Of a stretch of DNA of 64,000 nt, positions 17,309 to 47,829 are shown piece after piece; position 1 is the stretch's first letter; every line of letters begins with the position of its first letter. The stretch is from a virus. Position numbers and translations under genes: made by a program. Location: the IMG/VR virus record IMGVR_UViG_3300050506_000187, positions 1-64,000 of that record. The stretch is one strand, 5' to 3'. A model generated the notes under the pieces. It saw nothing but the letters and a program-made list of their open reading frames with translations, made no database searches and was not told the DNA's origin.

Positions 17309-17313
17309 AAAAC

Positions 17314-19932: not shown

Positions 19933-20082
19933 GTGAAGAAGTCAACACACGAGGACAAGCTTTTCGAAAGGGCACCGGTTTCGGTGCGAAAACTGCACAA
20001 ATTGGCCCGGCAGGAGCGCCGCGAGCGCCGCCGCAAGGAATGGGCGGAAAAGGTCTCCGGTATAGAAAGGACCGGACCTTGA
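19933..20082 (+). CDS. 49-aa highly basic small ORF
   Basis: Below the ORF-track size cutoff. GTG lies 1 nt after the motif. Sequence VKKSTHEDKLFERAP...[11 protein letters not shown]... Confidence 0.3.
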   Translation: MKKSTHEDKLFERAPVSVRKLHKLARQERRERRRKEWAEKVSGIERTGP

Positions 20083-20510
20083 AACCTACGGTATTTCCGG
20101 ACAAGGTCTGCAAAGCTTGCGGGCGACCATTCAATCGCCGAACCACCAAAACAGGAAGATTGGAATCCTTTGAGGATTGTTCCGTTCGTAAATTTTGTTC
20201 TCGAATATGCTGGAAAAAGTTTACTCGTGGAGAGAACCACCCGCTCTTTGTTCCGGGAGGAACTCCAAGAGCCGACGGATATTTTCGAACAACGGCTAAT
20301 GGCAAGAGAGAATATGTTCATCGGTTAGTAGCCGCAGAAATCTTAGGAAGGCCCCTTCAATCTTCAGAGCATGTCCATCACATCGATGAGAGTCCGGGGC
20401 TTAACGTAAAAGAAAATCTTCAAATCTCGACCAATTCAGAACATCGAAAGATTCATGCCGCCCGAGACCCCCGTTCCGAAATCGGAAGATTCGTATGCAA
20501 AGAGCGTTAA
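20040..20510 (+). CDS. HNH endonuclease
   Basis: [48 protein letters not shown], plus an N-terminal CKACG...CSRIC zinc motif. Confidence 0.75.
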
Positions 20511-21493
20511 TATTTGGGCTGACAGGCCAAGACGGGAGTTATCTCGCAGAGTTGCTTCTCTCTAAGGGATACGAAGTTCACGGCACGGTCCGCCGGTCCT
20601 CCACAAACAATCTCAGCCGGATCGAACACTTGCCCGCACTCAATTTGCACTACGCAGATTTGAGCGATTCGAACTCGCTCGACCGAGTCGTCGGCCAAAC
20701 AGCACCGCATGAAATTTACAATTTGGCGGCTCAGAGTCATGTTGCGGTTTCATTCGCGAATCCCGAATACACAGCCAATTGCGATGCGACTGGCACCATT
20801 CGAATACTTGAGTCGGTCCGAGCCCATGCGCCGCAAGCGCGATTTTACCAAGCCTCGTCAAGCGAGATGTTTGGCCTCGTTCAAGAAATACCGCAGCGTG
20901 AAACAACGCCGTTCCATCCTCGAAGCCCATATGGTTGCTCAAAAGTCTTTTCGTATTGGGCCGTTCGAAATTATCGGGAGAGTTATGGTTTACACGCCAG
21001 CAACGGAATATTATTCAATCACGAATCGCCTCGACGTGGACTCAACTTCGTTACTCGCAAGATCACTCGCGCTGTGGCTCGCATTAAGTTCGGCTTGCAA
21101 GACAAAGTTAAACTCGGCAATCTCGATGCGCAGCGTGATTGGGGCTTCGCCGGTGATTATGTCGATGCCATGTGGCGAATGTTGCAACAGCCGTCGCCGG
21201 ACGATTACGTCATCGCGACCGGCCAGACGTGGACCGTTCGTGATTTCGCCCGCACAGCTTTCGCATACGTTGGGCTCGACTGGAACGAGTATGTGGAAAC
21301 TGATGCCGCGTTATTGCGCCCTGCCGAAGTTGATTTACTTATCGGCGATGCGACCAAAGCTAAGACCAAGCTTGGATGGAGTCCGCGAGTTGGCTTTGAC
21401 GGACTTGTTCGAATGATGGTTGACGCCGACATCGACGACATCAAAAGTTTTTGCACGAATTGCGGCCAGACCGCTTTCAAACTCTCAACATGA
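20495..21493 (+). CDS. gmd: GDP-mannose 4,6-dehydratase
   Basis: [28 protein letters not shown] (YxxxK), [28 protein letters not shown]. Confidence 0.92.
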
Positions 21494-30180: not shown

Positions 30181-30198
30181 CGGAAAATAATTTTTTTA

Positions 30199-30289: not shown

Positions 30290-30298
30290 TCTTCTATT

Positions 30299-30533: not shown

Positions 30534-30857
30534 TTGAAGATACTCACGACTTTTGTCCCGGAATCCGCCCCGATTCTCAAAACATGGGCTGCAAGCTGGC
30601 GGGGTCATGGCTGGACCCCCGGATTGCTGGCCCCCAAGGAGATTCAAAAACATCGCAAATTACGGGCTGCCGTCGCCGCCCGGCGCGGTCGTCTTTTTTG
30701 CAGTGCTTACCTAATCAATTTTGGTCTTCGCCGGGCTCCGCGTTCGCTCCGGACCTTCATTCGAAAATTCGGGTCCCCGGGGTGGGATACCGCAAAACTA
30801 GTCCTTTTTCCCGCCGGGACTACTTCAGAGCAGATCGAAAACTGTGGACATCGCTGA
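30534..30857 (+). CDS. hypothetical protein (small terminase candidate by position only)
   Basis: 107-aa ORF immediately upstream of, and overlapping, the large terminase gene. Confidence 0.45.
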   Translation: MKILTTFVPESAPILKTWAASWRGHGWTPGLLAPKEIQKHRKLRAAVAARRGRLFCSAYLINFGLRRAPRSLRTFIRKFGSPGWDTAKLVLFPAGTTSEQIENCGHR

Positions 30858-32784
30858 ACGAACAAAACTTTCGGCCATCGTCGCAAAGCACGTCCAATCC
30901 GCTGAACCGTGGATTGCCGCGCAAGCGATTTCTGACTTTGCGCAAATCAATGTCCGGTATACCCGCGATTCGCGGCCAGAAAAACTGAACGAGATTTTGC
31001 AGAGTTACTTACATGGACTATTGAATAATAACGGCATGTCGGAAGCCGCGAGTATACTTTGGACTCCGACGCAATTCACCGCTGGGCCCAATTCGGTTAA
31101 ATCGGTATGGGAACTTTTCGAGTCCTCATCTGCGGGTTTGATTATGGGAGCCGCTGCTCTCGGAAAATCTTTTTCGATGGGAGTCCGGCTTATGCTGGAA
31201 TGGATCAGAGACCCGGAGTATACGGGCATTCGCGTCATCGGCCCAAGCGAAGACCATCTTGAGCAAAATCTTTTTTCGCATCTCGTAAGTTTGCACGCAC
31301 AAGCGAGCCTACCCATGCCCGGAGAAGTCGGAGATTTATTCATCGGCACCAATCGTCGAAATCAAACGGCGGCGATTCGCGGCATCGTTGTTCCGAAGGG
31401 CAATAACAAAAAGGCAGGACGCCTGCAAGGCGGACACCGAAAGCCTCGCCCGAAACCCCATCCGATTTTCGGACCGCTGACGCGGATGTTTATTTTCATC
31501 GACGAAATCGAAAACGTTCCGGCAGGTATTTGGCACGATGTCGGCAACGTGCTCAGCGAAGTCGGTCCTGACGGAGGATTCAAAATTTTCGGCGCGTATA
31601 ACCCGACGAATCTAGGAGATGAAGTCGCAAAACAGGCGGAACCTCCTTTCGGATGGCCGAATGTTGACGTCAATATTCATTATAAATGGAAGTCTACTCG
31701 CGGATGGGATGTAATCCGTCTCGACGCCGAAAAATGTGAAAACGTAATCGCCGGAAAAGTGATATATCCCGGGCTGCAAACGCGCGAAGGGCTTGCGAAG
31801 ATTGCTCTGTCGTCCGGTGGAACGCAATCTGCGGGATATTACACCATGGGTCGGGGAATGTATCCGCAGCAGGGCATGCAAGCGACATTGATACCCTCCG
31901 GCATGCTGGAAAAAAGTCGCGCGAAATTTATTTGGTATGATGACAAGCAAGTTCGCGTAGGCGGATGCGATTTAGCGCTTGAAGGCGGGGACGATGCGGT
32001 ATATGCGTTAGGAAAATGGGGGCTCGCAACCGGTATTCAGTATCCGCCGACGCTTGAAAAACCGGATGGATTCAAGATCATGTTCAAAGATGAAAAGGGA
32101 CGAGTTCGGGCGCGGCACGGATTGCAAATCGAGAGCCTGATGATTATTCCGAAGGGCGATACCGTCGCAATCAAAGACCGTATCATCAAATTTAACAAGA
32201 ACGCAGGTGTCCGCCCAGAGTTTTTTGCGTGTGATCGAACCGGTGTAGGGGCCGGTGCTGCCGATTTGATACGCCATGAGTGGTCTCCTTCGATTCACGA
32301 CATAAATTATTCCTCCGGGGCCTCCGATTCTCGAATTATGTCGGAGCACAGCAAGACATGCGCCGACGAATATGATCGGCTTGCAACCGAAATTTGGTTC
32401 CGGCTCCGGTTCTGGCTTGAATTTGGGTTCGCGCTTTTCGATCCGGGCATGGATATGAGCAAGGTCGGACAGCAATTAACGCAACGACGGCAGCTTAGCT
32501 CCGGTTCGAAGGCCAAAATTGAGTCCAAACGGGATTACGAATCGCGCGGATTCGCGTCTCCGAATGAAGCGGACGCGATTACGCTGCTCGTTCACGCGGC
32601 ACATCGCGGTTCCGGCGTGACCCCAAGCATGGACGGCGGGTCTCAAATACCGGAAAACCCGTGGGAAGATGATTGGCCGCACTCGGGCATGCAGGGCGGA
32701 GTAAAAATTGATTTATCAAACCGTTCTGACTGGCTGGACGACCGCCCCGAATCAGCGGAGCCGGGAGAATTTGCGATTTTATGA
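30844..32784 (+). CDS. terL: terminase large subunit
   Basis: Walker A-like GAAALGKS, Walker B MFIFIDEIE, and a C-terminal nuclease-type GCDLALEGGDDAVYALG. Confidence 0.85.
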   Translation: MDIAERTKLSAIVAKHVQSAEPWIAAQAISDFAQINVRYTRDSRPEKLNEILQSYLHGLLNNNGMSEAASILWTPTQFTAGPNSVKSVWELFESSSAGLIMGAAALGKSFSMGVRLMLEWIRDPEYTGIRVIGPSEDHLEQNLFSHLVSLHAQASLPMPGEVGDLFIGTNRRNQTAAIRGIVVPKGNNKKAGRLQGGHRKPRPKPHPIFGPLTRMFIFIDEIENVPAGIWHDVGNVLSEVGPDGGFKIFGAYNPTNLGDEVAKQAEPPFGWPNVDVNIHYKWKSTRGWDVIRLDAEKCENVIAGKVIYPGLQTREGLAKIALSSGGTQSAGYYTMGRGMYPQQGMQATLIPSGMLEKSRAKFIWYDDKQVRVGGCDLALEGGDDAVYALGKWGLATGIQYPPTLEKPDGFKIMFKDEKGRVRARHGLQIESLMIIPKGDTVAIKDRIIKFNKNAGVRPEFFACDRTGVGAGAADLIRHEWSPSIHDINYSSGASDSRIMSEHSKTCADEYDRLATEIWFRLRFWLEFGFALFDPGMDMSKVGQQLTQRRQLSSGSKAKIESKRDYESRGFASPNEADAITLLVHAAHRGSGVTPSMDGGSQIPENPWEDDWPHSGMQGGVKIDLSNRSDWLDDRPESAEPGEFAIL

Positions 32785-36330: not shown

Positions 36331-37707
36331 ATGCCTGAGAATAATGCTAACAATCAGGGATTCGCTGATCCCGAGAAAAATAACGCCGACGTTGCCAAAA
36401 AACTTTTGGAGCAAAACGCCGAAACTCTCGATGTCGATGTAGGACCGGCTTCGGACGCACTCGACAAACTGGCGCAAGAAGCGCAAAAGAAGGCGGATGC
36501 CGCCGCTGCTGCGACCCCGCCGGTCGTCGAACCGAAAGAAGACAAGGACGAGTCTCCGGATGTTCAACCGTTGCCGGACAAAGATAAAGACAAAGGTAAG
36601 TCCGGGACTGCGCCTCCGGAGCCGACGGAAGCAGAAAAAGCTACGGCCAAGGAAAAGGCCGATGCCGAAGCGAAACAGCGCGAGGAAGCGGATAAAATTT
36701 TCAAAGACAGTCCGAGTCTTCCGGCGAATGCCAGTCCTAAATCTTCGGAGGCATTCAACGCAATCAAGATCAAAGCCGCGCAGGTAATCAGCGCTCGCGA
36801 GGCCGAATTGGAAAAGCTTCGCAAAGAAAAATCGGAGCTAGAACAGAAACTCAAAAATCCGATTCCGGAAGATGTTGCAAAGGAATTGGAGGATCATCGG
36901 AATTGGAGAGCCAAACTCGACATCGACGCCGATCCCAAGTTCAAAGAATTCGACAAATCTATTGCGTCGACGCAGGAGTTTATTTACGCGCAGCTTCGCA
37001 AGAGCCCGAAGATTACGAATGAGGTAATCGAAAAAATCAAGGCCCACGGCGGTCCGGAGAATGTCAAACTCGACGCTGTTTTCGAAGCGATTGGAGACCC
37101 GGTCACTCAGCGCCTCGTGGAATCCAAAATCGCGGATATTGAGATGGCCAAGTATAATAAAGAAATGGCCATTCGCGCCGCGAAAGAAAATGTTGGCCAG
37201 TATCGCGAAGCGCGGAGCAAGGCGATGATCGAGAGCCAGTCGGCTCATACGAACGCGACGAAAGAAAGCTTGGGGCGTTATCTCGGAGCGCTCGAATGGG
37301 CCAAAGAAAAAACTGCCGATGAGAAAGCCGACGAGAACACCAAGAAATCGGTTGCGGAGTATAATAAATTCCTCGACGAAACTCGGGCGCAAATCGAGAA
37401 CGCCGTCAAAGATGACTCTGCGGAAATGAGGGCTATCCTCATTACCGGCATGGCTCAACTTTTCTATGAACGTCGAGAAACTGCCGGTCTCAAGGCCGAA
37501 CTGGAAGCGACGAAGAAAAATCTCGCGGACGTCACGGCGAAATGGGAAAAGATCAAGCAATCGTCCGGACGGCTTAGCACCACGGCCCCGGCCACTGCGA
37601 CGACTGTGGCCAAGCCGACGCATGACGTTACCGTCCCTGCGGGCGATGCGCTCGATGCCATTGCGAAACAGGTCATGGAGAAACGCGCCGCCGAAGCCAA
37701 TAAATGA
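36331..37707 (+). CDS. scaffolding protein (positional/compositional call)
   Basis: 458 aa, K/E/A-rich and predicted helical. Lies between the portal and capsid genes. Confidence 0.6.
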   Translation: MPENNANNQGFADPEKNNADVAKKLLEQNAETLDVDVGPASDALDKLAQEAQKKADAAAAATPPVVEPKEDKDESPDVQPLPDKDKDKGKSGTAPPEPTEAEKATAKEKADAEAKQREEADKIFKDSPSLPANASPKSSEAFNAIKIKAAQVISAREAELEKLRKEKSELEQKLKNPIPEDVAKELEDHRNWRAKLDIDADPKFKEFDKSIASTQEFIYAQLRKSPKITNEVIEKIKAHGGPENVKLDAVFEAIGDPVTQRLVESKIADIEMAKYNKEMAIRAAKENVGQYREARSKAMIESQSAHTNATKESLGRYLGALEWAKEKTADEKADENTKKSVAEYNKFLDETRAQIENAVKDDSAEMRAILITGMAQLFYERRETAGLKAELEATKKNLADVTAKWEKIKQSSGRLSTTAPATATTVAKPTHDVTVPAGDALDAIAKQVMEKRAAEANK

Positions 37708-38621
37708 TCGAGCTATTTTCATCCGACAAAGCCGAAGGACTGGAACCACTTCCGGTCCTTCCGGCTACTACGGTGGTGACTTACGGGAAAAAAATTCTCG
37801 TTTGTATGCCGTGGCAAAAACACGTCTCGCCCATTACCTCGATGTGTGTGACGAATCTTGTTGATAGAAAACGGACCGCTACTATGATGAATTTCGGGGA
37901 TGCCTTTGTCGCGCATTCTCGAAATCATTGTGCCGATTTTTTTCTCAAGGGAGATTTTGAATGGATGCTAACCGTTGACGATGACATGGTTATTCCGTTC
38001 GGAAATGCGATGTGGTATAATGCGTATACCGGGTTCAATTTTTCGGAAAAGTTCGCCGGATGGAACGCGCTGGATCGATTGATGTCGCATAAAAAATCAC
38101 TTGTTGGTGCGCTTTATTTTGGTCGACATCAGTATGGTCCGCCGGTGTATAATGAGGGAACCGCAAATCCTCAGGAGGCTACGTATGCCCGAGGAGGTCC
38201 CTACGATTTAATTAGGCCGACGAAGTGGGTCGGGACCGGATGCATGTTGATACACCGCTCCGTATTTGAGGACATCGAGAAAAAATTTCCGACGATTGCC
38301 CGGGGACCCGATAAGTCGGGGGGTCAATGGTTTACATCGACGGAAGTAACCTTCATGGAGGACGTGATTCGGGCGCGCGCCGCGCTGGATGGTGAATTAA
38401 ACGGAGAACGGGCGTATAAGGCTTTGACTTTGTTAGATGCCGCCATCGCAAAGGCGAGGGTGGATAACTGCCTCGGCTGCGGCGAAGACGTTTCTTTCTG
38501 TCGTCGAGCGATGGCCGCAGGGCATCAGCCGTATGTGGATATGGGTTTGATATGCGGTCATATTGGGCACAAAGTTTACGGTCCGGACAGCACCAAAAAC
38601 AAACCTGTGCTTTCGCGGTGA
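37704..38621 (+). CDS. GT-A fold glycosyltransferase
   Basis: ATGA overlap with the scaffold gene. TVDDDMV (DxD), GTGCMLIHRSVFEDI, GEDVSFCRRA. Confidence 0.7.
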   Translation: MIELFSSDKAEGLEPLPVLPATTVVTYGKKILVCMPWQKHVSPITSMCVTNLVDRKRTATMMNFGDAFVAHSRNHCADFFLKGDFEWMLTVDDDMVIPFGNAMWYNAYTGFNFSEKFAGWNALDRLMSHKKSLVGALYFGRHQYGPPVYNEGTANPQEATYARGGPYDLIRPTKWVGTGCMLIHRSVFEDIEKKFPTIARGPDKSGGQWFTSTEVTFMEDVIRARAALDGELNGERAYKALTLLDAAIAKARVDNCLGCGEDVSFCRRAMAAGHQPYVDMGLICGHIGHKVYGPDSTKNKPVLSR

Positions 38622-39361
38622 AAAATCCGGTCCCCACAGATCGAATGCTGATTTGTCTCCTGTTCTGGGAGGGAGACAAAAAACAATGTTTCGCGCTTGC
38701 AAAACTCATCGCCGATCTCGAAGATTCACACTCTTCGAAGGCCGATTTGCTTTTTGTTTCTCGATTTGATTGCAAGCATGATATGGATGCAATTCGGGCT
38801 ATCTCAAGGAAATTTAATGTTTACACGCACACTTCAAAAAGACGCGGGACGGGCTGGCCGATGGGATGCAATTCTCTTTTCTTCGGAACGTTGGAATGGG
38901 TTTATTACAAGATGGCCGGTGCGCAGATTCCGCATTATCGGAGCGTGCTGATTCTTGGCGCGGATACCGTCCCGCTGAATAAAAATTGGATCGACATTAT
39001 GCGCAATGCGTTCGAAGAGAACGGACGCCCTTGTATTTCCGGAGCGCTGATTAAGGACCCGGTCGGAGGTCACGATCATATTAATGGGGATTGCGCGTTG
39101 CTTACCGGTGATTTGAATTTTTTGAAATGGCTGACATTGGAAATCGGAGACATTTCCGTTCAAGCGGGGTGGGACTGGGTTTTGTCGAAAGAATTCGAGC
39201 GTCGGGGATGGTGCAATTTTCCGTTCGTAACTAGTTACTGGAATCGACCGGTTCCATTCACTCAGGAAGATTGGGAACGCGAGCAAGCCTCCGGAACGGT
39301 AATGTTTCACGGTCAAAAAGGATTTTCTCTTCTTAACATTGCCCGTAAAAATCTCCTATGA
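38618..39361 (+). CDS. hypothetical protein, possible glycosyltransferase
   Basis: GTGA overlap start (alternative ATG at 38645). GTGWPMGCN and HINGDCALL motifs. Function inferred from context only. Confidence 0.5.
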   Translation: MKNPVPTDRMLICLLFWEGDKKQCFALAKLIADLEDSHSSKADLLFVSRFDCKHDMDAIRAISRKFNVYTHTSKRRGTGWPMGCNSLFFGTLEWVYYKMAGAQIPHYRSVLILGADTVPLNKNWIDIMRNAFEENGRPCISGALIKDPVGGHDHINGDCALLTGDLNFLKWLTLEIGDISVQAGWDWVLSKEFERRGWCNFPFVTSYWNRPVPFTQEDWEREQASGTVMFHGQKGFSLLNIARKNLL

Positions 39362-40311
39362 ATGAATTAGCTGTAGTCTGTGGTGCTGGCGGATACGTCG
39401 GCGGTCGTCTTGTTCAATTTCTCAAGAAAAAAGGATTTCGAGTCCGGGCGGTCTATTCCCCGAGAGTGGTTGCAGTTCACGACTGTGTAGATGAACGAAT
39501 CAAGGCCGATTTAACAATCCCGTATCAGGCCGAAAAATCCGTTGAAGGAGGAACGTGGATTTTTAATCTCGCGGCCAATGTCGGCGGTATCGGTTACATC
39601 AGCAAAAATCGGGCACAATGTATGTCAATTGCCTCGATAAATCTTAACTTGCTTCAGGCGTGTGCAAAACATCCAGTCGCCGGATATTTTTTTGCTTCGT
39701 CTTCGTGTGTATATCCAAGTCATTACGAAGGGCAAGTGTGCAAAGAACATAACGGGTCTTTTGCGTGTTCGACCGCCGGATACGGGCAGGAGAAATATTT
39801 TAGCGAGCAGGCGTGCAAATGGTTTGAAACCGAACACAAGGTCCCGGTTAAAATCGCTCGATACCACACCATTTATGGGCCGGGTGATGATCGAGGTGCA
39901 GACCGGGATCATTTTCCCTCGGCCATGGCATCAAAAGTTGCGCGCGCAAAGGTCTCTGGATCGAATGAGATAACCATTTGGGGCGACGGAACGCAAACGA
40001 GAAGCCTTATTCACGTTGACGATTGCGTCGAAGGAACCTTTAGGCTTATGTTCTCCAATATCGAAGGGCCGATAAATCTGGCACACCCCGAAGTCGTATC
40101 GGTGAATTCTTTAGTCGACGAATTGGAGACAATCTCTGGAACAAAACCGGTTCGGTTTTATTCTCCGGAAGCGACTGTCGGAGCCAAGAATAAAGTCGCC
40201 TGCTTGAATCGATTGCGGACTCGACTCGGCTGGGTTCCCGAAATCAGCATGGCGGAAGGATTGCCCAGTCTATATCGGTATTTTTACGACCGGTATCTTT
40301 TCGCAAAGTGA
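39358..40311 (+). CDS. extended-SDR sugar-nucleotide epimerase/reductase (GDP-mannose 3,5-epimerase / GDP-L-fucose synthase-like)
   Basis: GAGGYVGG Rossmann motif, YGQEK (YxxxK), FNLAANVGGIGYI, FFASSSCVYP, RYHTIYGP, IWGDGTQTRSLIHVDDCVEG. Confidence 0.78.
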   Translation: MNELAVVCGAGGYVGGRLVQFLKKKGFRVRAVYSPRVVAVHDCVDERIKADLTIPYQAEKSVEGGTWIFNLAANVGGIGYISKNRAQCMSIASINLNLLQACAKHPVAGYFFASSSCVYPSHYEGQVCKEHNGSFACSTAGYGQEKYFSEQACKWFETEHKVPVKIARYHTIYGPGDDRGADRDHFPSAMASKVARAKVSGSNEITIWGDGTQTRSLIHVDDCVEGTFRLMFSNIEGPINLAHPEVVSVNSLVDELETISGTKPVRFYSPEATVGAKNKVACLNRLRTRLGWVPEISMAEGLPSLYRYFYDRYLFAK

Positions 40312-41006
40312 ACGAAGATACGCTCATCGCCGTTTGTGCATACGCCGGGGATGCGCATCAAGTAATTAATGCTCTCCCGCTGTATTTGCACCATGAATGC
40401 CCGGTTGTCGTGTTTTCCCCGACGAATTCTCCCGCTGATGTCCGATACCCGGGAGTTGAGCGTGAATTTATCGGAGCCGCCGCGTATATCGGAGAGTTAT
40501 CGTTGATGCGTCAGATTTGGAATTTGCAAGCACTTTTGCGGCATCCACAAAACTATTTTTTACTTCACGATTCCGATTCATTTTGTTTGAGCCCGGCGAT
40601 TCCGTGGGAGTTGTATACGTTGTCGGAAAAAACTATTTGGTCCAATGAAATTACCGAACCTCGCCCGCATGCGAGCCCGTATCCAAAACTGGCTTTCCAG
40701 CCTCCTTATTTTCTCAGTCGTCGGGTCATCGAGCAAATGTTATCCGTGGCGGATAATTTCACAAATCATCCGATTACTCCTTACATAGATTGGGCGATGA
40801 ATTGTTGGTCTGCGGAGGCAGGGTTGAGCCACCGGTCATTTTCTGCGCTGGAACACACTCCGTATACAGAAAATCCGTGCGTCTCGGATGACCCATGGGA
40901 AACATTGCGGTATCGAATTCGATATATGGGCGCGACGATGATGCATCCAATCAAAACACCGGAGCAGATAAAACTTTGCACTGAAGCCTATGCTAAAAAA
41001 TCCTGA
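40308..41006 (+). CDS. DxD-motif protein, glycosyltransferase candidate (paralog a)
   Basis: GTGA overlap. AYAGDAHQV...LLHDSDSFCLSP...IWSNE...LAFQPPYFLSR. Paralogous to 40990..41730. Confidence 0.55.
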   Translation: MNEDTLIAVCAYAGDAHQVINALPLYLHHECPVVVFSPTNSPADVRYPGVEREFIGAAAYIGELSLMRQIWNLQALLRHPQNYFLLHDSDSFCLSPAIPWELYTLSEKTIWSNEITEPRPHASPYPKLAFQPPYFLSRRVIEQMLSVADNFTNHPITPYIDWAMNCWSAEAGLSHRSFSALEHTPYTENPCVSDDPWETLRYRIRYMGATMMHPIKTPEQIKLCTEAYAKKS

Positions 41007-41730
41007 CACTCTCGTTTCGGTCCATGCTTACGCCGGTGACTTACATCAAGTCGAGAACAACATGTCATTATACGCGCACCATGGTTGTCAGGTTTGCGTG
41101 CTGTCGCCGACCGATGCGCCAATTGAACGGGTTGAACATCCCGGAGTTGTGTGCCATCAATTAGGTCTCAAGGGGTGGATCGGTCCCCAAACGCTCGAAC
41201 GTCAGCGACTTCATCTCGAATTTTTATTGCGGTTCCCGCAAAAGTTTTTTCTTTGCAACGACGCCGATTCGTTTTGTCTCAGTGCAAAACTTCCAAACTA
41301 TCTGTATGCAAATCCGGATGTGATTTGGTCGAACGAAGTCGCCGATTTGAATCCTGCGCCATCGCTGCTTCCGAAATTGGCGTTGCAACCTCCGTATTTT
41401 CTTTCTCGAAAAACTATCGAAGGAATGCTTCGGACATGGGATCATCTGCCAACATCATATTACGCGGGCGCAGACCCGGCCAATGGATGCCCGGTCCCGA
41501 CATCGTGTATCGATCATGTCATGTTGCAGGCCGCAGAGGGTAGCGGGTATCCGCACCACAGTTTTCGGGACGGTGCAAGTTTTGAGACGGAAAGCGCCGT
41601 AGGTCTGAGCACCATGGTTGATCTCGTTCAAAACCATGGCAGGATTTTTATTCACTCCGTCAAAACCCGACCGGTTATGGAGCGTCTCGTCTCTGCGCGG
41701 GCGCAATGGGCGCGCGAAAATCGAGGTTGA
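40990..41730 (+). CDS. DxD-motif protein, glycosyltransferase candidate (paralog b)
   Basis: AYAGDLHQV...LCNDADSFCLSA...IWSNE...LALQPPYFLSR. Confidence 0.55.
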   Translation: MLKNPDTLVSVHAYAGDLHQVENNMSLYAHHGCQVCVLSPTDAPIERVEHPGVVCHQLGLKGWIGPQTLERQRLHLEFLLRFPQKFFLCNDADSFCLSAKLPNYLYANPDVIWSNEVADLNPAPSLLPKLALQPPYFLSRKTIEGMLRTWDHLPTSYYAGADPANGCPVPTSCIDHVMLQAAEGSGYPHHSFRDGASFETESAVGLSTMVDLVQNHGRIFIHSVKTRPVMERLVSARAQWARENRG

Positions 41731-41908
41731 TGATTTCGGTCGGACGAGTGACCACTTTATGAGCCCTACGCCCGGCTGGCTCCCCGGGAAGTGCCTAAGC
41801 GCTGTTTGGCCACAGCGAGAGAAAATCAAAGTCTTTGAAGCGGACAGGTTGCTTCACCGAATTTGAGACCCGGACAACGGTCTCTCGTTAGTTAAACGCC
41901 CAAACATT

Positions 41909-43207
41909 ATGGCTTTTTTCTGTGATGATCCCAGTGCGATTTCCGACATCGCCAGTAAGGATACAAATCGTATCGTCGGCACCATCGCGAAGGCTCTCGC
42001 GGCTAATTCCGTATACATGAACGTCATTGGCGGCGGGGTTTTCCCTTCCGGCGTGTCTGATGCTATCCGGTCGGTTGTCCAAATGCAGGCGGCTCCCGGC
42101 GATTCGCTTGCCATTCCGACCTTTGTTTGTGATACCGAAATCTGCGGTCAGACCGGCATTCAGGACTTGACGGATACCGTCGAGTTTACCCTCCGGCTGG
42201 AAAGCTTCCGTGGTCGGGGTCCCAATATTTGCGTGAAGAAAGGTTACGCGGCTTTCAAGGGGTCCTACGTCATGGCGGAGGATTCGCTCAAGAAACTCGT
42301 GACCCAGTATATTAACTCCGACATTCGCGCTCAGTTGTATCTGCGCTCGGCGTCGAAGTTTACTGCGAACGCGAATTACGATTTCGATTCGCTGTTCACC
42401 GGTGGTCTCGAAACCGATCTCGGCGTGAAGTTCGCTCCGCTGTTGCCGACCGGTCCGATGACCTTCAAGGCGCTGCATTACATCGCCCGTTACCTCAAAG
42501 AAGTTCTGTTCGGCGAATGGTATTCGCAGGATAAGGGCATGCCTCATTTTCGCTTCATCGGCGGAGCCGATCAGGTCGAATATTTTCGTTCCGAAGTCGG
42601 GGTTCAAAACATCATGATTGCGTTGACGACCGGCGGATACAAACTTGGTGAGCAATCACTGACTGCGTATTCGTTCGAACAGTCTCCGGCCTACCGTGGT
42701 ATCGCTTTTGGTGTCGATCAACGGCCTTTGCGTGCGACAGGCTTCAAGGCCGACGGCACCCTTAATCTCGTCGACCCCGTCACCATCGTTAGCAACCCGG
42801 CGCGCAACACCGCGTTTGCCAAACCTAATCCGGCTTGGTTGAATGCCGATTACGAAGTCGGCGTGCTTATCGCGGACGGCAGCTTTGAACGCCTCGTGCC
42901 GGAAAAGTATGTCGGCGAAGGTTCGTTCAAATTCGCGCCTCAGCTTCACATGGGAGAGTTGGAATGGCATTACATTCTCGACAATGAATGTAATCAGTGG
43001 GGAGATTTCGGCTGGCATAAGTATCAGATTACTCGTGCTTACCGGCCTCTGCGTCCTCAGCACATTATTCCGATTCTGTATAAGCGCTGCAAAGCTGACC
43101 TCGGCCTCATCGCTTGTGCGGATTCTAGCTCGTCCAGCTTCTCCGGCTCGGATAGCTTCACGAACATCGGGGTTTGCGGCGACGATGAGCATCCCGTGAT
43201 TCACTAA
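41909..43207 (+). CDS. major capsid protein (positional call) with Ser-rich C-terminal tail
   Basis: 432-aa ORF after the scaffold gene, followed by a strong terminator. C-terminus ...ADSSSSSFSGSDSFTNIGVCGDDEHPVIH. Confidence 0.65.
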   Translation: MAFFCDDPSAISDIASKDTNRIVGTIAKALAANSVYMNVIGGGVFPSGVSDAIRSVVQMQAAPGDSLAIPTFVCDTEICGQTGIQDLTDTVEFTLRLESFRGRGPNICVKKGYAAFKGSYVMAEDSLKKLVTQYINSDIRAQLYLRSASKFTANANYDFDSLFTGGLETDLGVKFAPLLPTGPMTFKALHYIARYLKEVLFGEWYSQDKGMPHFRFIGGADQVEYFRSEVGVQNIMIALTTGGYKLGEQSLTAYSFEQSPAYRGIAFGVDQRPLRATGFKADGTLNLVDPVTIVSNPARNTAFAKPNPAWLNADYEVGVLIADGSFERLVPEKYVGEGSFKFAPQLHMGELEWHYILDNECNQWGDFGWHKYQITRAYRPLRPQHIIPILYKRCKADLGLIACADSSSSSFSGSDSFTNIGVCGDDEHPVIH

Positions 43208-43247
43208 CCGTCCAAACTCTTAACATAGGGGGAGAGTTTGACACAAA

Positions 43248-43279
43248 GGGCGGGTTGGGAAACCAGCCCGCCCTTTTTT
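43248..43279 (+). terminator. rho-independent terminator
   Basis: GGGCGGGTTGG-gaaa-CCAGCCCGCCC followed by TTTTTT. Confidence 0.75.
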
Positions 43280-43303: not shown

Positions 43304-44350
43304 ATGGCCGATGATCCCAATACAGATTTCAAAACGGGCGACAACGAGTATAATATTTTTCGGAAGATACTCGCGCGTCTTAACCTCGGCATCACTACAT
43401 CCGGAGGCGGAGGCGGTGGGGGAGGCGGCGGAGCCGTCACCGTTGCCGATGGCGCAGACGTAACTCAAGGCGCGAAAGCGGACGCCGCCGCAACGGATTC
43501 AACTTCCGCGTGGTCGGTCGTCTCTGTTCTGAAGGGAATTTTTGCCAAGCTTGCAGGAACGTTGACGGCTACACTCACGGGCGCACTTCCGGCAGGCACG
43601 AATGTTATCGGACACGTTATCGCCGATTCTGGTTCGACCACGGCGGTAACTGGGAACGTCGCGGTTACAAACGCGGGTTTGACTAATCTCGATGTTGCAC
43701 TTTCGACCCGGCTTAAGCCTGCGGATACTCTCGCCGCTGTTACGGCGGTGACTTCGATCACGAATCCGGTTGCGGTAACGAACGCCGGGCTCACTAATAT
43801 CGACGTAGCGCTTTCGACTCGACTCAAACCGGCGGATACTTTGGCGGCTGTTACTACGGTCGGAACGGTGTCGGCTCTGACAACCGGCAACGTCGGCGGA
43901 TTTACTACGGTCATCAAAGACGCGACTGTCGTATCCACTTCTCCGGCATATTCTGCGGGTGACGCGGTCGGCGCAAAACGAACATTGGCGAACGCCGTCC
44001 GTTCTGCGGGAACTGGTATTCTGCAAACAGTCGCGATTCTCGACAGATCGAACCAAAAAGCGGCTATGACCGTTTTTATTTTCGACGCCGACCCGACTAA
44101 TGCCACAATAACCGACAACGCGGCTTTTGTTTTCAGCACCGACGATCTCAAGGTCATTGCGCAAGTAAACATCGCGGCTTCTGATTACGTGACTACGAAC
44201 AGTAAGGCGTATGCGATTATCTCCGGGTTATCAATTCCGGTCAGGGCCGCAAGTGGAACTAGTTTGTATTGCGCAGTAGTTACGACCGGCACGCCGACGT
44301 TTGCGGCAACAACTGACGTTCAGATTGAAGTCGGAATTCTGCAAGACTAA
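43304..44350 (+). CDS. repeat-containing fibre/decoration-like structural protein
   Basis: 348 aa with a run of 11 Gly and two 37-aa tandem repeats (VAVTNAGLTN(L/I)DVALSTRLKPADTLAAVT...). Confidence 0.6.
   Translation: MADDPNTDFKTGDNEYNIFRKILARLNLGITTSGGGGGGGGGGAVTVADGADVTQGAKADAAATDSTSAWSVVSVLKGIFAKLAGTLTATLTGALPAGTNVIGHVIADSGSTTAVTGNVAVTNAGLTNLDVALSTRLKPADTLAAVTAVTSITNPVAVTNAGLTNIDVALSTRLKPADTLAAVTTVGTVSALTTGNVGGFTTVIKDATVVSTSPAYSAGDAVGAKRTLANAVRSAGTGILQTVAILDRSNQKAAMTVFIFDADPTNATITDNAAFVFSTDDLKVIAQVNIAASDYVTTNSKAYAIISGLSIPVRAASGTSLYCAVVTTGTPTFAATTDVQIEVGILQD
43658..43879. repeat. 111-bp tandem duplication (2 diverged copies) inside CDS 43304..44350
   Basis: Copies begin at 43658 and 43769. 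Confidence 0.8.
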
Positions 44351-46743: not shown

Positions 46744-47829
46744 ATGCCCTGCGCCAATTGCGGACACGATCACGATCACAGGAATCCTCTCGATTCCTGT
46801 AGTCGAAGTTTTGACGCTTGTCAAAATCCCTGCGGCGTTGGGCCGAAGAATACGGCCAAGTGTGAATCGCTTCCGTCCCAAATTCAGAATTTCACACTTC
46901 AGTTTTTTGGAACCGTAGTCAAGACGGAAGTCGACGGACTCGTTACGTGGTCGTTGCCCTGTGGGCTAGATGTCGGATTGCCGAACAATCCTCGCGGAAT
47001 CGATGAAGGACTCGCGTGCTATTTTCTCCGGTTATTTCACGATGGAATCGTGGGATTAACCGGACCGCAAGGCGCGCCGGGCGCGAATGGTGCCAACGGA
47101 AATAATGCGTTCACGGTGACTTTGCGCGGGTTTACTCAGCCTACGATTGCTTCGCCTATCGTTCAAGTAGTTACTCAGTTCAACCCCGCGATTATCGCCG
47201 GGATTTATGTGTATATCACGAATTCCGGATGGTATCAAATTTTGGAGACGGATGGAAACGGAACTCTGCTTCTCGCGTTGGTAAAGTCTGCGGATTCTCC
47301 GGCGAATTTTATCGTAGCCGGAAAGCTTGTCGTGCCGTCGGGGTTCCCCGGCGCGAGTATTCAGGGCGGTCCCGGTCCGCAAGGTCCGCAGGGTCCACAG
47401 GGCGGTCCCGGTGAAGACTTCACCAAAACGAACGGTCAATTTTTTACGCAAGTCGGAGTTGATTTTTCACTTCCGATTACCTACACGCAAATCGATTATG
47501 CGAATGCGGCCCCGGCAGTAACGCTGCCCGCCGCCGGAACGTATCTCGTGACGGTTAATGTAGGATTCGCGGGTTCTGGTTCAGTTGCAGTGACGGATGA
47601 AGCCTCATTCAAACTTTTTAATCTTAATCTGAGCGCCGATATTCCGGGATCGGAACAATCTATGACCGGTTTAAGTGCCGCCGGTCAGAAACGAACTATT
47701 GCAATCTCGGTTCAGGTTCAGACCGATGCTCCGAATCAGACGGTTGCTCTTTTTGGCAAGGGTTCCAATGCCAGTGTGTTTACGGCGACGGCTTTGAGAA
47801 CCACGATTACGTATACTCGAATCTCGTGA
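46744..47829 (+). CDS. collagen-like repeat tail fibre protein
   Basis: GLTGPQGAPGANGANGNN and GGPGPQGPQGPQGGPGED G-x-y tracts. Cys/His-rich N-terminus. Confidence 0.65.
   Translation: MPCANCGHDHDHRNPLDSCSRSFDACQNPCGVGPKNTAKCESLPSQIQNFTLQFFGTVVKTEVDGLVTWSLPCGLDVGLPNNPRGIDEGLACYFLRLFHDGIVGLTGPQGAPGANGANGNNAFTVTLRGFTQPTIASPIVQVVTQFNPAIIAGIYVYITNSGWYQILETDGNGTLLLALVKSADSPANFIVAGKLVVPSGFPGASIQGGPGPQGPQGPQGGPGEDFTKTNGQFFTQVGVDFSLPITYTQIDYANAAPAVTLPAAGTYLVTVNVGFAGSGSVAVTDEASFKLFNLNLSADIPGSEQSMTGLSAAGQKRTIAISVQVQTDAPNQTVALFGKGSNASVFTATALRTTITYTRIS

What the first reader, a model, noticed from the sequence alone, without database searches (positions are those of the whole stretch)
37704..43207. Sugar-nucleotide/glycosyltransferase island between the scaffold and major capsid genes: candidate virion glycosylation system
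Five tightly coupled genes interrupt the usual scaffold-capsid adjacency. Coupling is by ATGA/GTGA overlaps at 37704, 38618, 39358 and 40308, plus a 17-nt overlap at 40990. The genes are a clear GT-A glycosyltransferase (DDD, GEDxxFC), an unassigned GWP/HING protein, an SDR epimerase/reductase close to GDP-mannose 3,5-epimerase/GDP-fucose synthase, and two paralogous DxD proteins (HDSDSF / NDADSF). The same genome carries gmd (20495-21493), which supplies GDP-4-keto-6-deoxymannose. The capsid protein ends in a Ser-rich tail (ADSSSSSFSGSDSFTN). Chloroviruses and some mycobacteriophages are known to glycosylate capsids with virus-encoded enzymes, and the mycobacteriophage cases use C-terminal tails. 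A GDP-hexose pathway plus four candidate transferases embedded in the head module would be a more elaborate version. Three of the five proteins have no function I can assign.
Basis: partly seen in the sequence, partly recalled or inferred. Interest (0 to 1): 0.8.

Follow-up and report, generated by a model that had tools for sequence, protein, structure and literature searches.

The report
Glycosyltransferase cluster inside phage head operon
An uncultured soil phage, like all its relatives examined, carries sugar-attaching enzyme genes between its probable scaffold and capsid genes, most likely to coat the virus head with sugars, though the target is not yet proven.

Summary
Five translationally coupled genes lie between the presumed scaffold and major capsid (MCP) genes.

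- **Enzymes.** Four are GT-A-type glycosyltransferases. O2 and P4 were modelled with AlphaFold2 (pLDDT 97 and 92) and matched glycosyltransferases in Foldseek. P5 is a 39% paralog of P4. GT1 is supported by invariant DDD/GED motifs and weak PHROG hits only. The fifth gene is a GDP-mannose-3,5-epimerase-like SDR with a Cys/His catalytic pair. gmd at 20495-21493 is genuine.
- **Not an insertion.** GT1 is present in 62 of 62 and O2 in 61 of 62 related IMG/VR loci. The pair also occurs where the MCP is only 29% identical. Accessory genes (gmd, fucose synthase, P4/5 copies, sulfotransferases, a pyruvyltransferase-like gene, a CapD-like dehydratase, HNH nucleases) give about 33 layouts.
- **Capsid tail.** The MCP ends in a conserved Cys-loop followed by a Ser-rich motif. 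Ser/Thr-rich tails occur across the MCP family.

Best reading (confidence 0.55): late-expressed cytoplasmic glycosylation of a head protein, most likely the MCP tail. The target is unproven. The MCP, scaffold and portal identities are inferred, because no database recognises them. This is a new variant of a known kind (mycobacteriophage and chlorovirus capsid glycosylation) with no detectable sequence similarity to the Che8 enzymes. Interest 0.65.

The parts
36331..37707 (+). Presumed scaffolding protein (458 aa). It is the first gene of the coupled run.
   Evidence: The identification is inferred and no family matches. It has 36% charged residues, no hydrophobic segment, and lies between the portal-like gene and the MCP. 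Homologs occupy the same place in relatives at 33-54% identity. Its stop overlaps the GT1 start (ATGA).
37704..38621 (+). GT1: core glycosyltransferase (305 aa), probably GT2-like GT-A. The fold was not modelled.
   Evidence: It is present in 62 of 62 loci and in distant L083 and L087 (E 3e-120 and 8e-42). DDD and GED are invariant in 31 diverse homologs. All 31 hit phrog_1574 (unknown function); 11, 4, 3, 2 and 1 members hit five PHROGs annotated as glycosyltransferases, best E 3e-6, and no other annotated family is hit. No Pfam, NCBIfam or PDB sequence hit was found. It has no transmembrane segment.
38618..39361 (+). O2: core GT-A glycosyltransferase (247 aa), with a GT8/glycogenin-like fold.
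   Evidence: The AlphaFold2 model has pLDDT 96.8 and pTM 0.93. Foldseek against PDB gives glycogenin E 2.8e-8 and TM 0.57, then CHSY3-CHPF, XXYLT1, B3GalT5/6 and XT1. Foldseek against BFVD gives viral GT8-like glycosyltransferases, best E 1.3e-9. It is present in 61 of 62 loci and in L083, L084 and L087. The family has 601 members, none with a Pfam domain.
39358..40311 (+). Extended-SDR nucleotide-sugar 3,5-epimerase or epimerase/reductase (317 aa).
   Evidence: Pfam Epimerase E 3.5e-37. The best solved relative is GDP-mannose 3,5-epimerase 2c59, E 6.6e-44. The residues equivalent to Ser143, Cys145, Tyr174 and Lys178 are conserved, but Lys217 is His, and this His is invariant in 12 phage homologs. 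It scores 98 bits against the GDP-fucose synthase equivalog, whose cutoff is 500.
40308..41006 (+). P4: accessory GT-A glycosyltransferase (232 aa) with a DxD motif (HDSDS).
   Evidence: The AlphaFold2 model has pLDDT 92.0 and pTM 0.90. Foldseek against PDB gives the CHSY3-CHPF chondroitin polymerase E 2.5e-9 and TM 0.66, then GfsA, LARGE1 and the GT6 ABO transferases. D88, D90 and S91 are invariant. The family has 708 members, none with a Pfam domain.
40990..41730 (+). P5: paralog of P4 (246 aa) with NDADS as its DxD motif.
   Evidence: It is 39% identical to P4, E 4e-48, and belongs to the same family alignment. Relatives carry 0-2 copies. Tandem fusions of 540-553 aa exist elsewhere (P0121-P0123).
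41865..41884 (+). Conserved hairpin in the 178-nt spacer upstream of the MCP gene. It may be an mRNA 5'-end, processing or regulatory element.
   Evidence: The sequence is GAGACCCGGACAACGGTCTC. In 20 diverse relatives the 5-bp stem is 91% paired, 4 of 5 pairs carry compensatory changes, and 0 of 500 shuffles reach the observed score.
41909..43207 (+). Presumed major capsid protein (432 aa).
   Evidence: The identification is inferred. It is the most conserved gene of the module, at 73-96% identity where the portal is 45-77%. The family has 179 clusters at 50% identity, mostly 400-430 aa. It is always downstream of the portal, scaffold and glycosyltransferase genes and is followed by a strong terminator. 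No Pfam, PHROG or PDB sequence hit was found for any of 74 members or for the family profile. A crude propensity profile (hairpin about residues 91-111, then a helix about 120-137) is compatible with an HK97-type E-loop and spine helix (weak evidence).
43088..43204 (+). MCP C-terminal tail (residues 394-432): Cys394-x8-Cys403 loop, Ser-rich motif SSSSSFSGSDSFT, then GVC. This is the candidate acceptor.
   Evidence: The motif RC.ADLGL..C...SS[FY][ST]G[AS]D[ST][FY]...GVC is conserved in all loci whose MCP C-terminus could be read. Ser/Thr make up 53% of residues 404-420. Family-wide, tails after the second Cys are 34% Ser/Thr against 13% in the body, in 56 of 60 sequences.
43245..43276 (+). Intrinsic terminator that closes the scaffold-glycosyltransferase-MCP unit.
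   Evidence: It has a 14-bp stem with 9 GC pairs, then TTTTGTT. A GC-rich hairpin of -12 to -31 kcal/mol followed by a T-run lies at the same place in at least 28 of 57 distinct relatives.
20495..21493 (+). GDP-mannose 4,6-dehydratase (gmd). It belongs to the pathway but lies outside the cluster in this genome.
   Evidence: TIGR01472 475 bits, cutoff 415. In 22 relatives gmd lies inside the scaffold-MCP interval, usually next to a GDP-fucose-synthase-like gene.
20040..20510 (+). HNH endonuclease that overlaps the gmd start. It may be the mobility partner that relocated gmd.
   Evidence: PF13392 E 1e-5. Endonuclease-VII-type HNH genes sit inside the cluster in 16 relatives.

Best explanation
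The five genes form a phage-encoded, soluble, cytoplasmic glycan-building module.

**Expression.** The module is expressed as part of the late head operon: scaffold, GT1, O2, SDR, P4, P5, spacer with hairpin, MCP, terminator.

**Donor supply.** gmd and the Cys/His SDR convert host GDP-mannose into a GDP-L-hexose or GDP-6-deoxy-L-hexose donor, such as fucose or a related sugar.

**Core enzymes.** GT1 and O2 are present in essentially every relative. They put the first sugars on a head protein. The most likely acceptor is the set of Ser/Thr residues in the conserved Ser-rich motif, which follows the Cys-loop at the C-terminus of the major capsid protein.

**Accessory enzymes.** P4 and P5, the paralogous pair, extend the glycan. 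In relatives this accessory part is swapped. It carries other GT-A proteins, gmd plus fucose synthase, sulfotransferases, a pyruvyltransferase-like gene or a CapD-like dehydratase. HNH nucleases may drive these swaps. Closely related capsids would therefore carry different glycans.

**What is shown:** the gene order and coupling; the GT-A folds of O2 and P4; the SDR and gmd identities; the conservation and variability of the module; and the conserved Ser-rich tail.

**What is inferred:** the capsid and scaffold identities; the acceptor; the order of action; and the sugars.
For: - **Enzyme identities.** Searches support the assignments above.
- **Soluble proteins.** No protein in the run has a transmembrane-like segment.
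- **Coupling and transcription unit.** Overlaps of 4 nt or 17 nt run from the scaffold stop to P5. A strong terminator lies directly after the MCP and is positionally conserved.
- **Linkage to the head genes is ancient.** GT1 is in 62 of 62 loci and O2 in 61 of 62, between scaffold and MCP. L087, with an MCP only 29% identical, still has portal, scaffold, GT1, an O2-containing protein and MCP in that order. L084 (37%) has O2 upstream of its MCP.
- **Minimal version.** Five loci carry GT1+O2 alone. This constant pair matches the constant Ser-rich MCP motif.
- **Family-wide tails.** Ser/Thr-rich tails occur across the MCP family.
- **Glycan-locus behaviour.** About 33 architectures occur in 62 loci, and near-identical MCP tails sit next to different accessory sets. 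Sulfotransferase PF13469 scores E 2e-28, PS_pyruv_trans E 5e-10 and Polysacc_synt_2 E 2e-72. Fucose-synthase-like genes score 356-430 bits.
- **Precedents.** Mycobacteriophages carry glycans on the C-termini of capsid and tail-tube subunits, made by phage glycosyltransferases (PMC12619734, PMC12363180). Chloroviruses encode GMD, GMER and soluble GT-A enzymes that glycosylate their capsid protein (PMC5408694).
Against: - No experiment or structure ties any enzyme to any acceptor.
- The MCP, scaffold, portal and terminase labels have no family, PHROG or PDB support.
- The Ser-rich motif is conserved, not variable. It could serve assembly or another role.
- Co-occurrence of the tail and the glycosyltransferases cannot be tested inside the clade, because no member lacks them.
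- The most distant relative examined (L089, MCP 22% identical) has a Ser/Gly-rich tail but no GT1 or O2 within 10 kb upstream.
- O2 has only one invariant Asp where GT-A enzymes usually have DxD.
- The next gene, d1, is 22% Ser/Thr and is an equally reasonable acceptor.
Confidence: 0.55

Rival explanations
1. The same module glycosylates a different virion protein and not the MCP tail. Candidates are the Ser/Thr-rich protein encoded just after the MCP (d1, 43304-44350), the collagen-like fibre (46744-47829), or the scaffold.
For: d1 is 22% Ser/Thr, against 12% for the MCP overall. It contains a Gly run and two repeats. The collagen-like protein gives weak tail-fibre PHROG hits. Mycobacteriophages also glycosylate tail-tube subunits (PMC12619734). 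Everything that supports a late, head-linked module applies equally here.
Against: d1 lies beyond the terminator. It is poorly conserved or undetectable in many relatives (45-80% identity or no hit), whereas GT1 and O2 are universal. The MCP and its Ser-rich motif are the constant partners of GT1 and O2.
Confidence: 0.17
2. The enzymes remodel host envelope glycans (LPS, capsule or EPS) during infection, for example for superinfection exclusion, release or receptor masking. Their position in the head operon only provides late timing.
For: Many phage glycosyltransferases modify host serotype (reviewed in PMC12619734). A GDP-fucose pathway, sulfotransferases and pyruvyltransferases are typical of bacterial surface-polysaccharide loci. 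A serine recombinase at 29323-30180 could indicate a temperate lifestyle.
Against: No flippase, polymerase, initiating phosphoglycosyl transferase or any membrane-spanning protein lies in the run. Serotype-converting genes are normally expressed in lysogeny and located near attachment sites; they are not translationally coupled to a scaffold gene. The tight, ancient linkage to the MCP across 29-96% identity is unexplained by this model.
Confidence: 0.13
3. The transferases hypermodify phage DNA with sugars to evade restriction.
For: Three of 31 GT1 homologs weakly hit phrog_842 (beta-glucosyl-HMC alpha-glucosyltransferase, best E 1.6e-4). DNA glycosylation by diverse viral glycosyltransferases is known (cited in PMC12619734). 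The left arm carries nucleotide-metabolism genes of unclear role: a dGTP diphosphohydrolase-like domain and DUF1937.
Against: No hydroxymethylase- or thymidylate-synthase-like gene appears among the Pfam-annotated genes across about 0-31 kb of the genome. The module sits in the head operon and not in the replication arm. Sulfo- and pyruvyl-transferases, the GDP-fucose pathway and four different GT-A proteins are not what known DNA-glycosylation systems use.
Confidence: 0.05
4. The conserved pair GT1+O2 has a non-catalytic or assembly role, for example as capsid chaperones derived from glycosyltransferases. Alternatively, the module makes a free or lipid-bound glycan that is not attached to the virion.
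For: O2 lacks a full DxD motif. The position between scaffold and MCP is where assembly factors normally sit. No acceptor is demonstrated.
Against: Residues typical of a catalytic site are invariant: GT1 DDD and GED; O2 D116, H154 and H231; P4/5 DxD. Dedicated sugar-nucleotide enzymes and glycan-modifying enzymes travel with the pair, which argues for real glycan synthesis.
Confidence: 0.08

Closest known systems
Mycobacteriophage virion O-glycosylation (Che8 gp108-110, Corndog gp38, Myrna; Freeman et al. 2023, as summarised in PMC12363180 and PMC12619734)
   Same: In both, phage-encoded soluble glycosyltransferases are present and the capsid subunit has a C-terminal region as the (proposed) acceptor. 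In both, an HNH gene lies near the glycosyltransferase genes (Che8 gp112).
   Different: - In Che8 the scaffold (gp5) and MCP (gp6) are adjacent. The three glycosyltransferases lie at the far right genome end. Here the enzymes sit between scaffold and MCP and are translationally coupled to the scaffold.
- No sequence or profile similarity was found between the Che8 glycosyltransferases or MCP and the proteins here.
- The module here adds its own GDP-sugar pathway and, in relatives, sulfo- and pyruvyl-transferases.
- The Che8 MCP ends in a short ...NKTGS tail. Here there is a roughly 30-residue Cys-loop plus Ser-rich motif.
- Glycosylation is demonstrated for Che8 and only inferred here.
Chlorovirus PBCV-1 capsid (Vp54) glycosylation with virus-encoded GMD, GMER and soluble GT-A enzymes such as A064R (PMC5408694)
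   Same: Both have a virus-encoded GDP-mannose 4,6-dehydratase plus a 3,5-epimerase/reductase-type SDR. Both have several soluble GT-A glycosyltransferases without signal peptides or membrane anchors. In both, glycan variation would give antigenic variation of the capsid.
   Different: The chlorovirus is a eukaryotic giant virus with a double-jelly-roll capsid protein and atypical N-linked glycans. Its genes are scattered and expressed early. Here the virus is a tailed phage of about 72 kb, the proposed acceptor is an O-type Ser-rich tail, and the genes are clustered in the late head operon.
GT-A glycosyltransferases of the GT8/glycogenin type and the CHSY/CHPF, LARGE1 and GT6 types
   Same: The fold is shared: TM 0.56-0.67 and Foldseek E 1e-8 to 1e-9. 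P4/P5 have a DxD after the fourth strand. P4/P5 occur as a pair or as a two-domain fusion, like the two-domain polymerases CHSY and LARGE1.
   Different: Identity is only 9-16%. No Pfam, NCBIfam or PDB sequence hit was found. O2 has a single invariant Asp where DxD is usual. Donor, acceptor and stereochemistry are unknown.
GDP-mannose 3,5-epimerase (GME, PDB 2c59) and GDP-L-fucose synthase (Fcl/GMER)
   Same: It is an extended SDR with GxxGxxG, the Ser/Tyr/Lys triad and the catalytic Cys. The best solved relative is GME, E 6.6e-44.
   Different: The GME base Lys217 is replaced by His, giving the Cys/His pair known from GDP-fucose synthase (the GFS pair is from established knowledge). The protein nevertheless scores only 98 bits on the Fcl equivalog model, whose cutoff is 500. 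Many relatives carry a true Fcl-like gene in its place.

Membership tests
GT-A fold glycosyltransferases (O2, P4, P5, GT1) | Single Rossmann-like alpha/beta/alpha domain with a central mixed sheet that superposes on solved GT-A enzymes | tested here: met
   O2 has pLDDT 96.8 and its top 50 PDB matches are all glycosyltransferases. P4 has pLDDT 92.0 with the same result. P5 follows from 39% identity to P4. The GT1 fold was NOT modelled; its support is sequence-level only.
GT-A fold glycosyltransferases (O2, P4, P5, GT1) | DxD (or variant) metal/nucleotide-binding motif after the fourth strand | tested here: inconclusive
   The motif is met for P4/P5: D88-x-D90 is invariant and follows strand 83-88. 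It is met at sequence level for GT1, where DDD 92-94 is invariant. O2 has only D116 invariant after strand 106-113, with H154 and H231 invariant.
GT-A fold glycosyltransferases (O2, P4, P5, GT1) | Assignable to a curated sequence family (Pfam, CAZy-type or NCBIfam) | tested here: not met
   No hit reached threshold for any of the four proteins or for 31 GT1 homologs. No Pfam domain was found on the best 120 listed of 601 O2 relatives or of 708 P4/5 relatives. The three families are not detectably related to each other.
GT-A fold glycosyltransferases (O2, P4, P5, GT1) | Transfer of a sugar from a nucleotide sugar to an acceptor | not testable with these tools
   This needs recombinant enzyme assays.
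GDP-mannose 4,6-dehydratase (gmd, 20495-21493) | Score above the curated equivalog cutoff of TIGR01472 | tested here: met
   475 bits against a cutoff of 415, E 1.7e-142, full length.
GDP-mannose 3,5-epimerase (SDR, 39358-40311) | Extended SDR with GxxGxxG and the Ser143/Tyr174/Lys178 triad | tested here: met
   GAGGYVG, SSSC and YGQEK align with 2c59.
GDP-mannose 3,5-epimerase (SDR, 39358-40311) | Cys145/Lys217 acid-base pair for the two epimerisations | tested here: not met
   Cys is conserved, but Lys217 aligns with His (RDH). This His is invariant in 12 phage homologs.
GDP-L-fucose synthase (Fcl/GMER) | Score above the NF047922 equivalog cutoff | tested here: not met
   98 bits against a cutoff of 500. 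Fcl-like genes in relatives score 356-430 bits.
Phage virion glycosylation systems of the mycobacteriophage (Che8) type | Phage-encoded glycosyltransferases homologous to Che8 gp108-110 | tested here: not met
   hmmsearch and hhalign of the GT1, O2 and P4/5 profiles against gp108-110 gave nothing; the best hhalign probability was 4.8%.
Phage virion glycosylation systems of the mycobacteriophage (Che8) type | Ser/Thr-bearing C-terminal extension on the capsid subunit | tested here: met
   The Ser-rich motif is conserved in all loci whose MCP C-terminus could be read. Tails are Ser/Thr-enriched in 56 of 60 family members. This holds only if the 432-aa protein is the capsid subunit.
Phage virion glycosylation systems of the mycobacteriophage (Che8) type | Glycans physically present on virion proteins | not testable with these tools
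   This needs virions or co-expression plus mass spectrometry.
HK97-fold major capsid proteins (41909-43207) | Recognisable by a capsid family profile or a solved capsid sequence | tested here: not met
   No Pfam, PHROG, NCBIfam or PDB hit was found for the protein, for 74 family members or for the family profile. No hit was found in GenBank phages. hhalign against the Che8 MCP gave 0.8% probability.
HK97-fold major capsid proteins (41909-43207) | HK97 fold (N-arm, E-loop, spine helix, P and A domains) | not tested
Only a crude propensity profile is available, and it is compatible with a hairpin followed by a long helix. Context evidence comes from gene order, conservation and the terminator.
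Serotype-converting prophage glycosyltransferase modules (Gtr type) | Membrane-embedded flippase, bactoprenol transferase or serotype-specific transferase | tested here: not met
   The maximum 19-residue hydropathy is at most 1.36 for all five proteins, so no transmembrane segment is present.
Phage DNA glycosylation systems (T-even type) | Hydroxymethyl-pyrimidine synthesis gene together with DNA glycosyltransferases | tested here: inconclusive
   No such Pfam family appears among the annotated genes of about 0-31 kb. Many genes there are unannotated, and about 7.6 kb of the contig lies outside the window. Three of 31 GT1 homologs weakly hit phrog_842.

The most novel reading that the evidence does not exclude
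The capsid of this phage group carries a proteoglycan-like coat. GT1 and O2 prime a Ser-Gly-containing acidic motif (SFSGSDSF) on the capsid tail. The paired or fused GT-A domains P4/P5 act like the two-domain polymerases they most resemble (CHSY3-CHPF, LARGE1) and build a repeating polymer. In some relatives sulfotransferases and pyruvyltransferases make that polymer anionic. This would be a glycosaminoglycan-like, serotype-variable shell on a tailed phage, exchanged between genomes by homing endonucleases.
Probability: 0.1. Interest if true: 0.9.

Novelty: new variant of a known kind. Interest (0 to 1): 0.65.

Why it matters
Virion glycosylation by phage-encoded enzymes has so far been shown for a few mycobacteriophages and is treated as a curiosity.

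Here a sequence-unrelated glycosylation module is a fixed, ancient part of the head operon. It occurs in a large, entirely uncultured group of phages of about 72 kb, with hundreds of relatives in metagenomes. Its accessory part varies in the way bacterial O-antigen loci do.

If the capsid is the target, three things follow:
- Sugar coats on phage heads would be widespread in the environment.
- They would be under diversifying pressure, whether for adhesion, stability, or evasion of host or predator recognition.
- They would be encoded in a compact, portable cassette with defined acceptor motifs, which would be useful for engineering glycosylated phage particles.

The work also assigns folds to three large 'hypothetical protein' families of 601, 708 and an uncounted number of members.

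Tried and rejected
**Searches that led nowhere**
- Pfam, NCBIfam, PHROG and PDB-sequence searches of O2, P4, P5, MCP, portal, scaffold and the terminase-like protein gave nothing. This held for single sequences and for profiles built from relatives.
- The best P4/5 PDB sequence hit was an insignificant IspD match (E 0.3).
- Profile-profile comparison of GT1 with O2 and with P4/5 showed no relationship.
- DNA and protein searches of GenBank phages found no relatives. The only hit was a weak Caulobacter phage Cr30 hypothetical protein for GT1.
- The genome-contig scan for a host or prophage found nothing. Scans with distant MCPs gave one locus only.
- Comparison with the Che8 glycosyltransferases, MCP, portal and terminase showed no similarity.
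- The Freeman 2023 paper itself is not held, so its facts are taken from papers that cite it.

**Ideas rejected**
- 'Island inserted into this genome': the arrangement is ancestral, and GC content is unremarkable.
- 'The SDR is a GME': the catalytic Lys is His.
- 'The Ser tail is hypervariable': it is conserved.
- Accessory gene content tracking the MCP tail variant: near-identical tails occur with different gene sets.

**Not used**
- The third large protein search was not run. Its top-120 listing would again have shown only close, unannotated relatives.

Full report
**Observation**

All reported ORFs are present on the + strand. The junctions are as described.
- The scaffold stop overlaps the GT1 start as ATGA at 37704.
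- GTGA lies at 38618, ATGA at 39358 and GTGA at 40308.
- P4 and P5 overlap by 17 nt at 40990.
- A 178-nt gap precedes the next gene at 41909.

Gene callers on the two source contigs made the same calls, including the GTG start that gives a 247-aa O2. Those contigs are JGI 3300006914 Ga0075436_100000049 (71,634 bp) and Logan SRR5585387.

The window is clearly phage.
- The leftward arm carries family-A DNA polymerase, a UvrD-type helicase and PD-(D/E)XK nucleases.
- The rightward arm starts with HNH and gmd and runs through the head and tail-like genes.

**What the five genes are**

GT1 (305 aa) has no Pfam, NCBIfam or PDB sequence hit.
- In 31 diverse homologs, DDD(92-94), GED(260-262) and H286 are invariant.
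- All 31 hit phrog_1574, which has no known function.
- Every annotated PHROG that any member hits is a glycosyltransferase family: 11, 4, 3, 2 and 1 members, best E 3e-6.
- Its fold was not modelled.

O2 and the P4/P5 pair were invisible to every sequence library, even as profiles.
- Large searches found 601 and 708 relatives. All the best 120 listed are 'hypothetical' without Pfam domains.
- AlphaFold2 on alignments of those relatives gave confident models: O2 pLDDT 96.8 and P4 pLDDT 92.0.
- Foldseek placed both among GT-A glycosyltransferases.
- O2 is nearest glycogenin/GT8 (E 2.8e-8, TM 0.57), then CHSY3-CHPF, XXYLT1, B3GalT5/6 and XT1. It also matches viral GT8-like enzymes.
- P4 is nearest the CHSY3-CHPF chondroitin polymerase (E 2.5e-9, TM 0.66), then GfsA, LARGE1 and the GT6 blood-group transferases.
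- P4/P5 carry an invariant D-x-D-S after strand 4. O2 has one invariant Asp there, plus invariant His154 and His231.
- P5 is 39% identical to P4. Tandem fusions of this domain exist elsewhere.
- None of the five proteins has a membrane-spanning segment.

The SDR is closest to GDP-mannose 3,5-epimerase (2c59, E 6.6e-44).
- The residue-level alignment keeps the Ser/Tyr/Lys triad and the catalytic Cys.
- It replaces the GME base Lys217 by His, and this His is invariant in 12 phage homologs.
- A Cys/His pair is the arrangement of GDP-fucose synthase (established knowledge). Yet the protein scores only 98 bits on that equivalog model, whose cutoff is 500.
- It is therefore a GDP-hexose 3,5-epimerase, or epimerase/reductase, of unresolved product.

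gmd at 20495-21493 is a bona fide GDP-mannose 4,6-dehydratase. An HNH nuclease gene overlaps its start.

**Comparative genomics**

The presumed MCP has 110 relatives in IMG/VR, and 80 loci were fetched. The genomes are about 70-75 kb.
- tblastn and ORF clustering show GT1 in 62 of 62 and O2 in 61 of 62 loci that include the scaffold-MCP interval.
- The one O2 'miss' (L032) has a tblastn hit.
- Five loci carry GT1+O2 alone.
- The rest add genes in about 33 different layouts.

| Sugar-nucleotide content of the interval | Loci |
|---|---|
| gmd + Fcl-like SDR | 19 |
| Fcl-like SDR only | 17 |
| GME-like SDR only | 8 |
| GME-like SDR + gmd | 3 |
| none | 15 |

- The GDP-fucose-synthase-like SDRs score 356-430 bits.
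- P4/5 is present in 0-2 copies.
- Other additions are sulfotransferases (PF13469, E 2e-28), a PS_pyruv_trans-like protein, a CapD/Polysacc_synt_2 dehydratase, several unassigned families and Endonuclease-VII-type HNH genes.
- MCPs are 73-96% identical where GT1 is 47-67% and O2 29-61%.
- Near-identical MCP tails sit next to different accessory sets. The accessory part therefore turns over quickly, as surface-glycan loci do.

The linkage is ancient.
- L087 has an MCP only 29% identical, yet its gene order is portal, small ORF, 529-aa scaffold-like protein, GT1 (E 8e-42), a 466-aa protein containing an O2 domain (E 1e-34), then MCP.
- L084 (37%) has a methyltransferase, O2 and an unknown gene upstream of its MCP.
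- L083 has both GT1 and O2.
- L089 (22%) has neither within 10 kb.

**The flanking genes**

No library recognises the portal-like, scaffold-like, terminase-like or MCP-like proteins. No cultured phage has relatives. The MCP label rests on the following.
- Gene order.
- A constant size of 400-430 aa across 179 clusters at 50% identity.
- The highest conservation in the module.
- A strong intrinsic terminator directly downstream (43245-43276), which is positionally conserved in relatives.
- A crude propensity profile compatible with an E-loop hairpin followed by a spine helix (weak evidence).

I rate it probable, not shown.

**The tail**

All loci whose MCP C-terminus could be read share RC.ADLGL..C, then a Ser-rich SS[FY][ST]G[AS]D[ST][FY] motif, then GVC, then a variable end.
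- The two Cys are conserved across the whole family, in 54-56 of 60 sequences.
- The segment after them is Ser/Thr-rich in 56 of 60 members, at 34% against 13% in the body.
- The motif is constant, like GT1 and O2.

**Regulatory features**

The 178-nt spacer before the MCP contains a hairpin at 41865-41884. Its 5-bp stem is kept by compensatory changes in relatives: 91% paired, 4 of 5 pairs covary, and 0 of 500 shuffles reach the score. A separate, stronger MCP transcript or a processing site would let the enzymes be made in catalytic amounts and the MCP in bulk amounts. This is inference.

**Mechanism proposed**

Late in infection the head operon supplies soluble enzymes in the cytoplasm, where capsid subunits are made.
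- gmd and the SDR draw on host GDP-mannose.
- GT1 and O2 start a glycan on the conserved Ser-rich capsid tail.
- P4/P5 and, in other genomes, alternative enzymes extend and decorate it.

Shown: enzyme folds and identities, coupling, conservation, variability and the tail motif. Inferred: acceptor, order of action, sugars and capsid identity. Confidence is 0.55.

**Rival explanations**

| Rival | Confidence |
|---|---|
| Another virion protein is the acceptor | 0.17 |
| Host envelope remodelling | 0.13 |
| Non-catalytic role or a free glycan | 0.08 |
| DNA glycosylation | 0.05 |

- For another virion acceptor, d1 is 22% Ser/Thr but is poorly conserved and lies beyond the terminator.
- For host envelope remodelling, there are no membrane components, and the coupling to head genes is unexplained.
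- For DNA glycosylation, there are only weak phrog_842 hits, no hydroxymethylase was found, and the module is in the wrong place.

**Comparison with known systems**

The closest functional precedent is mycobacteriophage virion glycosylation (PMC12363180, PMC12619734).
- In Che8 the scaffold and MCP are adjacent.
- The Che8 glycosyltransferases sit at the other genome end.
- Nothing is similar at the sequence level.

Chloroviruses offer the parallel of virus-encoded GMD, GMER and soluble GT-A enzymes acting on a capsid protein (PMC5408694). They do so with a different capsid fold, linkage and gene arrangement.

The finding is therefore a new variant of a known kind. It is computationally well supported as a glycan-synthesis module and plausible but unproven as a capsid-glycosylation system.

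Noticed in passing
window 41865-41884 (within spacer 41731-41908): A hairpin, GAGACCCGGACAACGGTCTC, lies 25-45 nt upstream of the MCP start. Compensatory changes maintain it in 20 diverse relatives. It is preceded by CCGG and a second hairpin, and followed by a TAGAAAGG-like ribosome-binding region. It may mark an mRNA 5' end, a processing site or a phage-specific regulatory site.
   Followed up: partly
window 43245-43276: A strong intrinsic terminator (14-bp stem, then a T-run) lies directly after the MCP gene. A GC-rich hairpin plus T-run lies at the same position in at least 28 of 57 distinct relatives, with unrelated stem sequences.
   Followed up: partly
window 20040-20510 and 49402-50007; relatives e.g. 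L042:8666-9121: HNH or Endonuclease-VII-type genes recur next to sugar genes. One overlaps the gmd start here, one sits among the tail-side genes, and 16 relatives carry one inside the glycosyltransferase cluster. This suggests homing-endonuclease-driven shuffling; gmd lies inside the cluster in 22 relatives but elsewhere here.
   Followed up: partly
window ~12353-13295 (-) and ~16484-18739 (-): The left arm encodes a dGTP-diphosphohydrolase-like N-terminal domain (PF18909) next to a DUF1937 protein, plus four DUF6197 paralogs. The first two hint at unusual nucleotide metabolism or DNA base modification.
   Followed up: no
window 30198-30373: Two adjacent tRNA genes lie just upstream of the terminase-like gene: tRNA-Met (CAT) and a 94-nt tRNA-like gene with an undetermined two-base 'anticodon'.
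   Followed up: no
window 29323-30180: A serine recombinase (Resolvase N-terminal domain, E 1e-17) lies in the rightward arm. It may be an integrase or invertase, so the phage may be temperate.
   Followed up: no
window 43088-43174 (MCP residues 394, 403, 421): Three conserved cysteines bracket the Ser-rich motif. The first two are conserved across the whole MCP family, down to about 20% identity. Their role (disulfide, metal site or cross-link) is unexplained.
   Followed up: partly
window 43304-44350: The gene after the MCP terminator encodes a 348-aa protein with an 11-Gly run, two 33-residue near-identical repeats (VAVTNAGLTN.DVALSTRLKPADTLAAVT) and 22% Ser/Thr. It is probably a head decoration or fibre protein, and an alternative glycosylation target.
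   Followed up: no
L089:7999-9783 versus window 30844-32784: In the most distant relative, a homolog (E 4e-19) of the window's 646-aa Walker-motif 'terminase-like' protein sits immediately upstream of the MCP. Either the gene order is rearranged there or this protein is not a conventional large terminase.
   Followed up: no
P0121-P0123 (relatives, 540-553 aa): Some relatives encode two P4/5-type GT-A domains fused in one protein. This mirrors the adjacent overlapping P4/P5 pair here and resembles two-domain glycan polymerases.
   Followed up: no
L073:7428-8378, L078:7115-7678, L068:8064-9083, L084:103-768, L089:7554-8006: In relatives, sulfotransferase, pyruvyltransferase-like and methyltransferase genes lie in the same scaffold-MCP interval. 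This implies charged or capped glycans in some lineages.
   Followed up: partly
window 26027-27046: A trypsin-like serine peptidase (PF13365, E 1e-18) is encoded far upstream of the head genes. No protease lies between the portal and the MCP.
   Followed up: no
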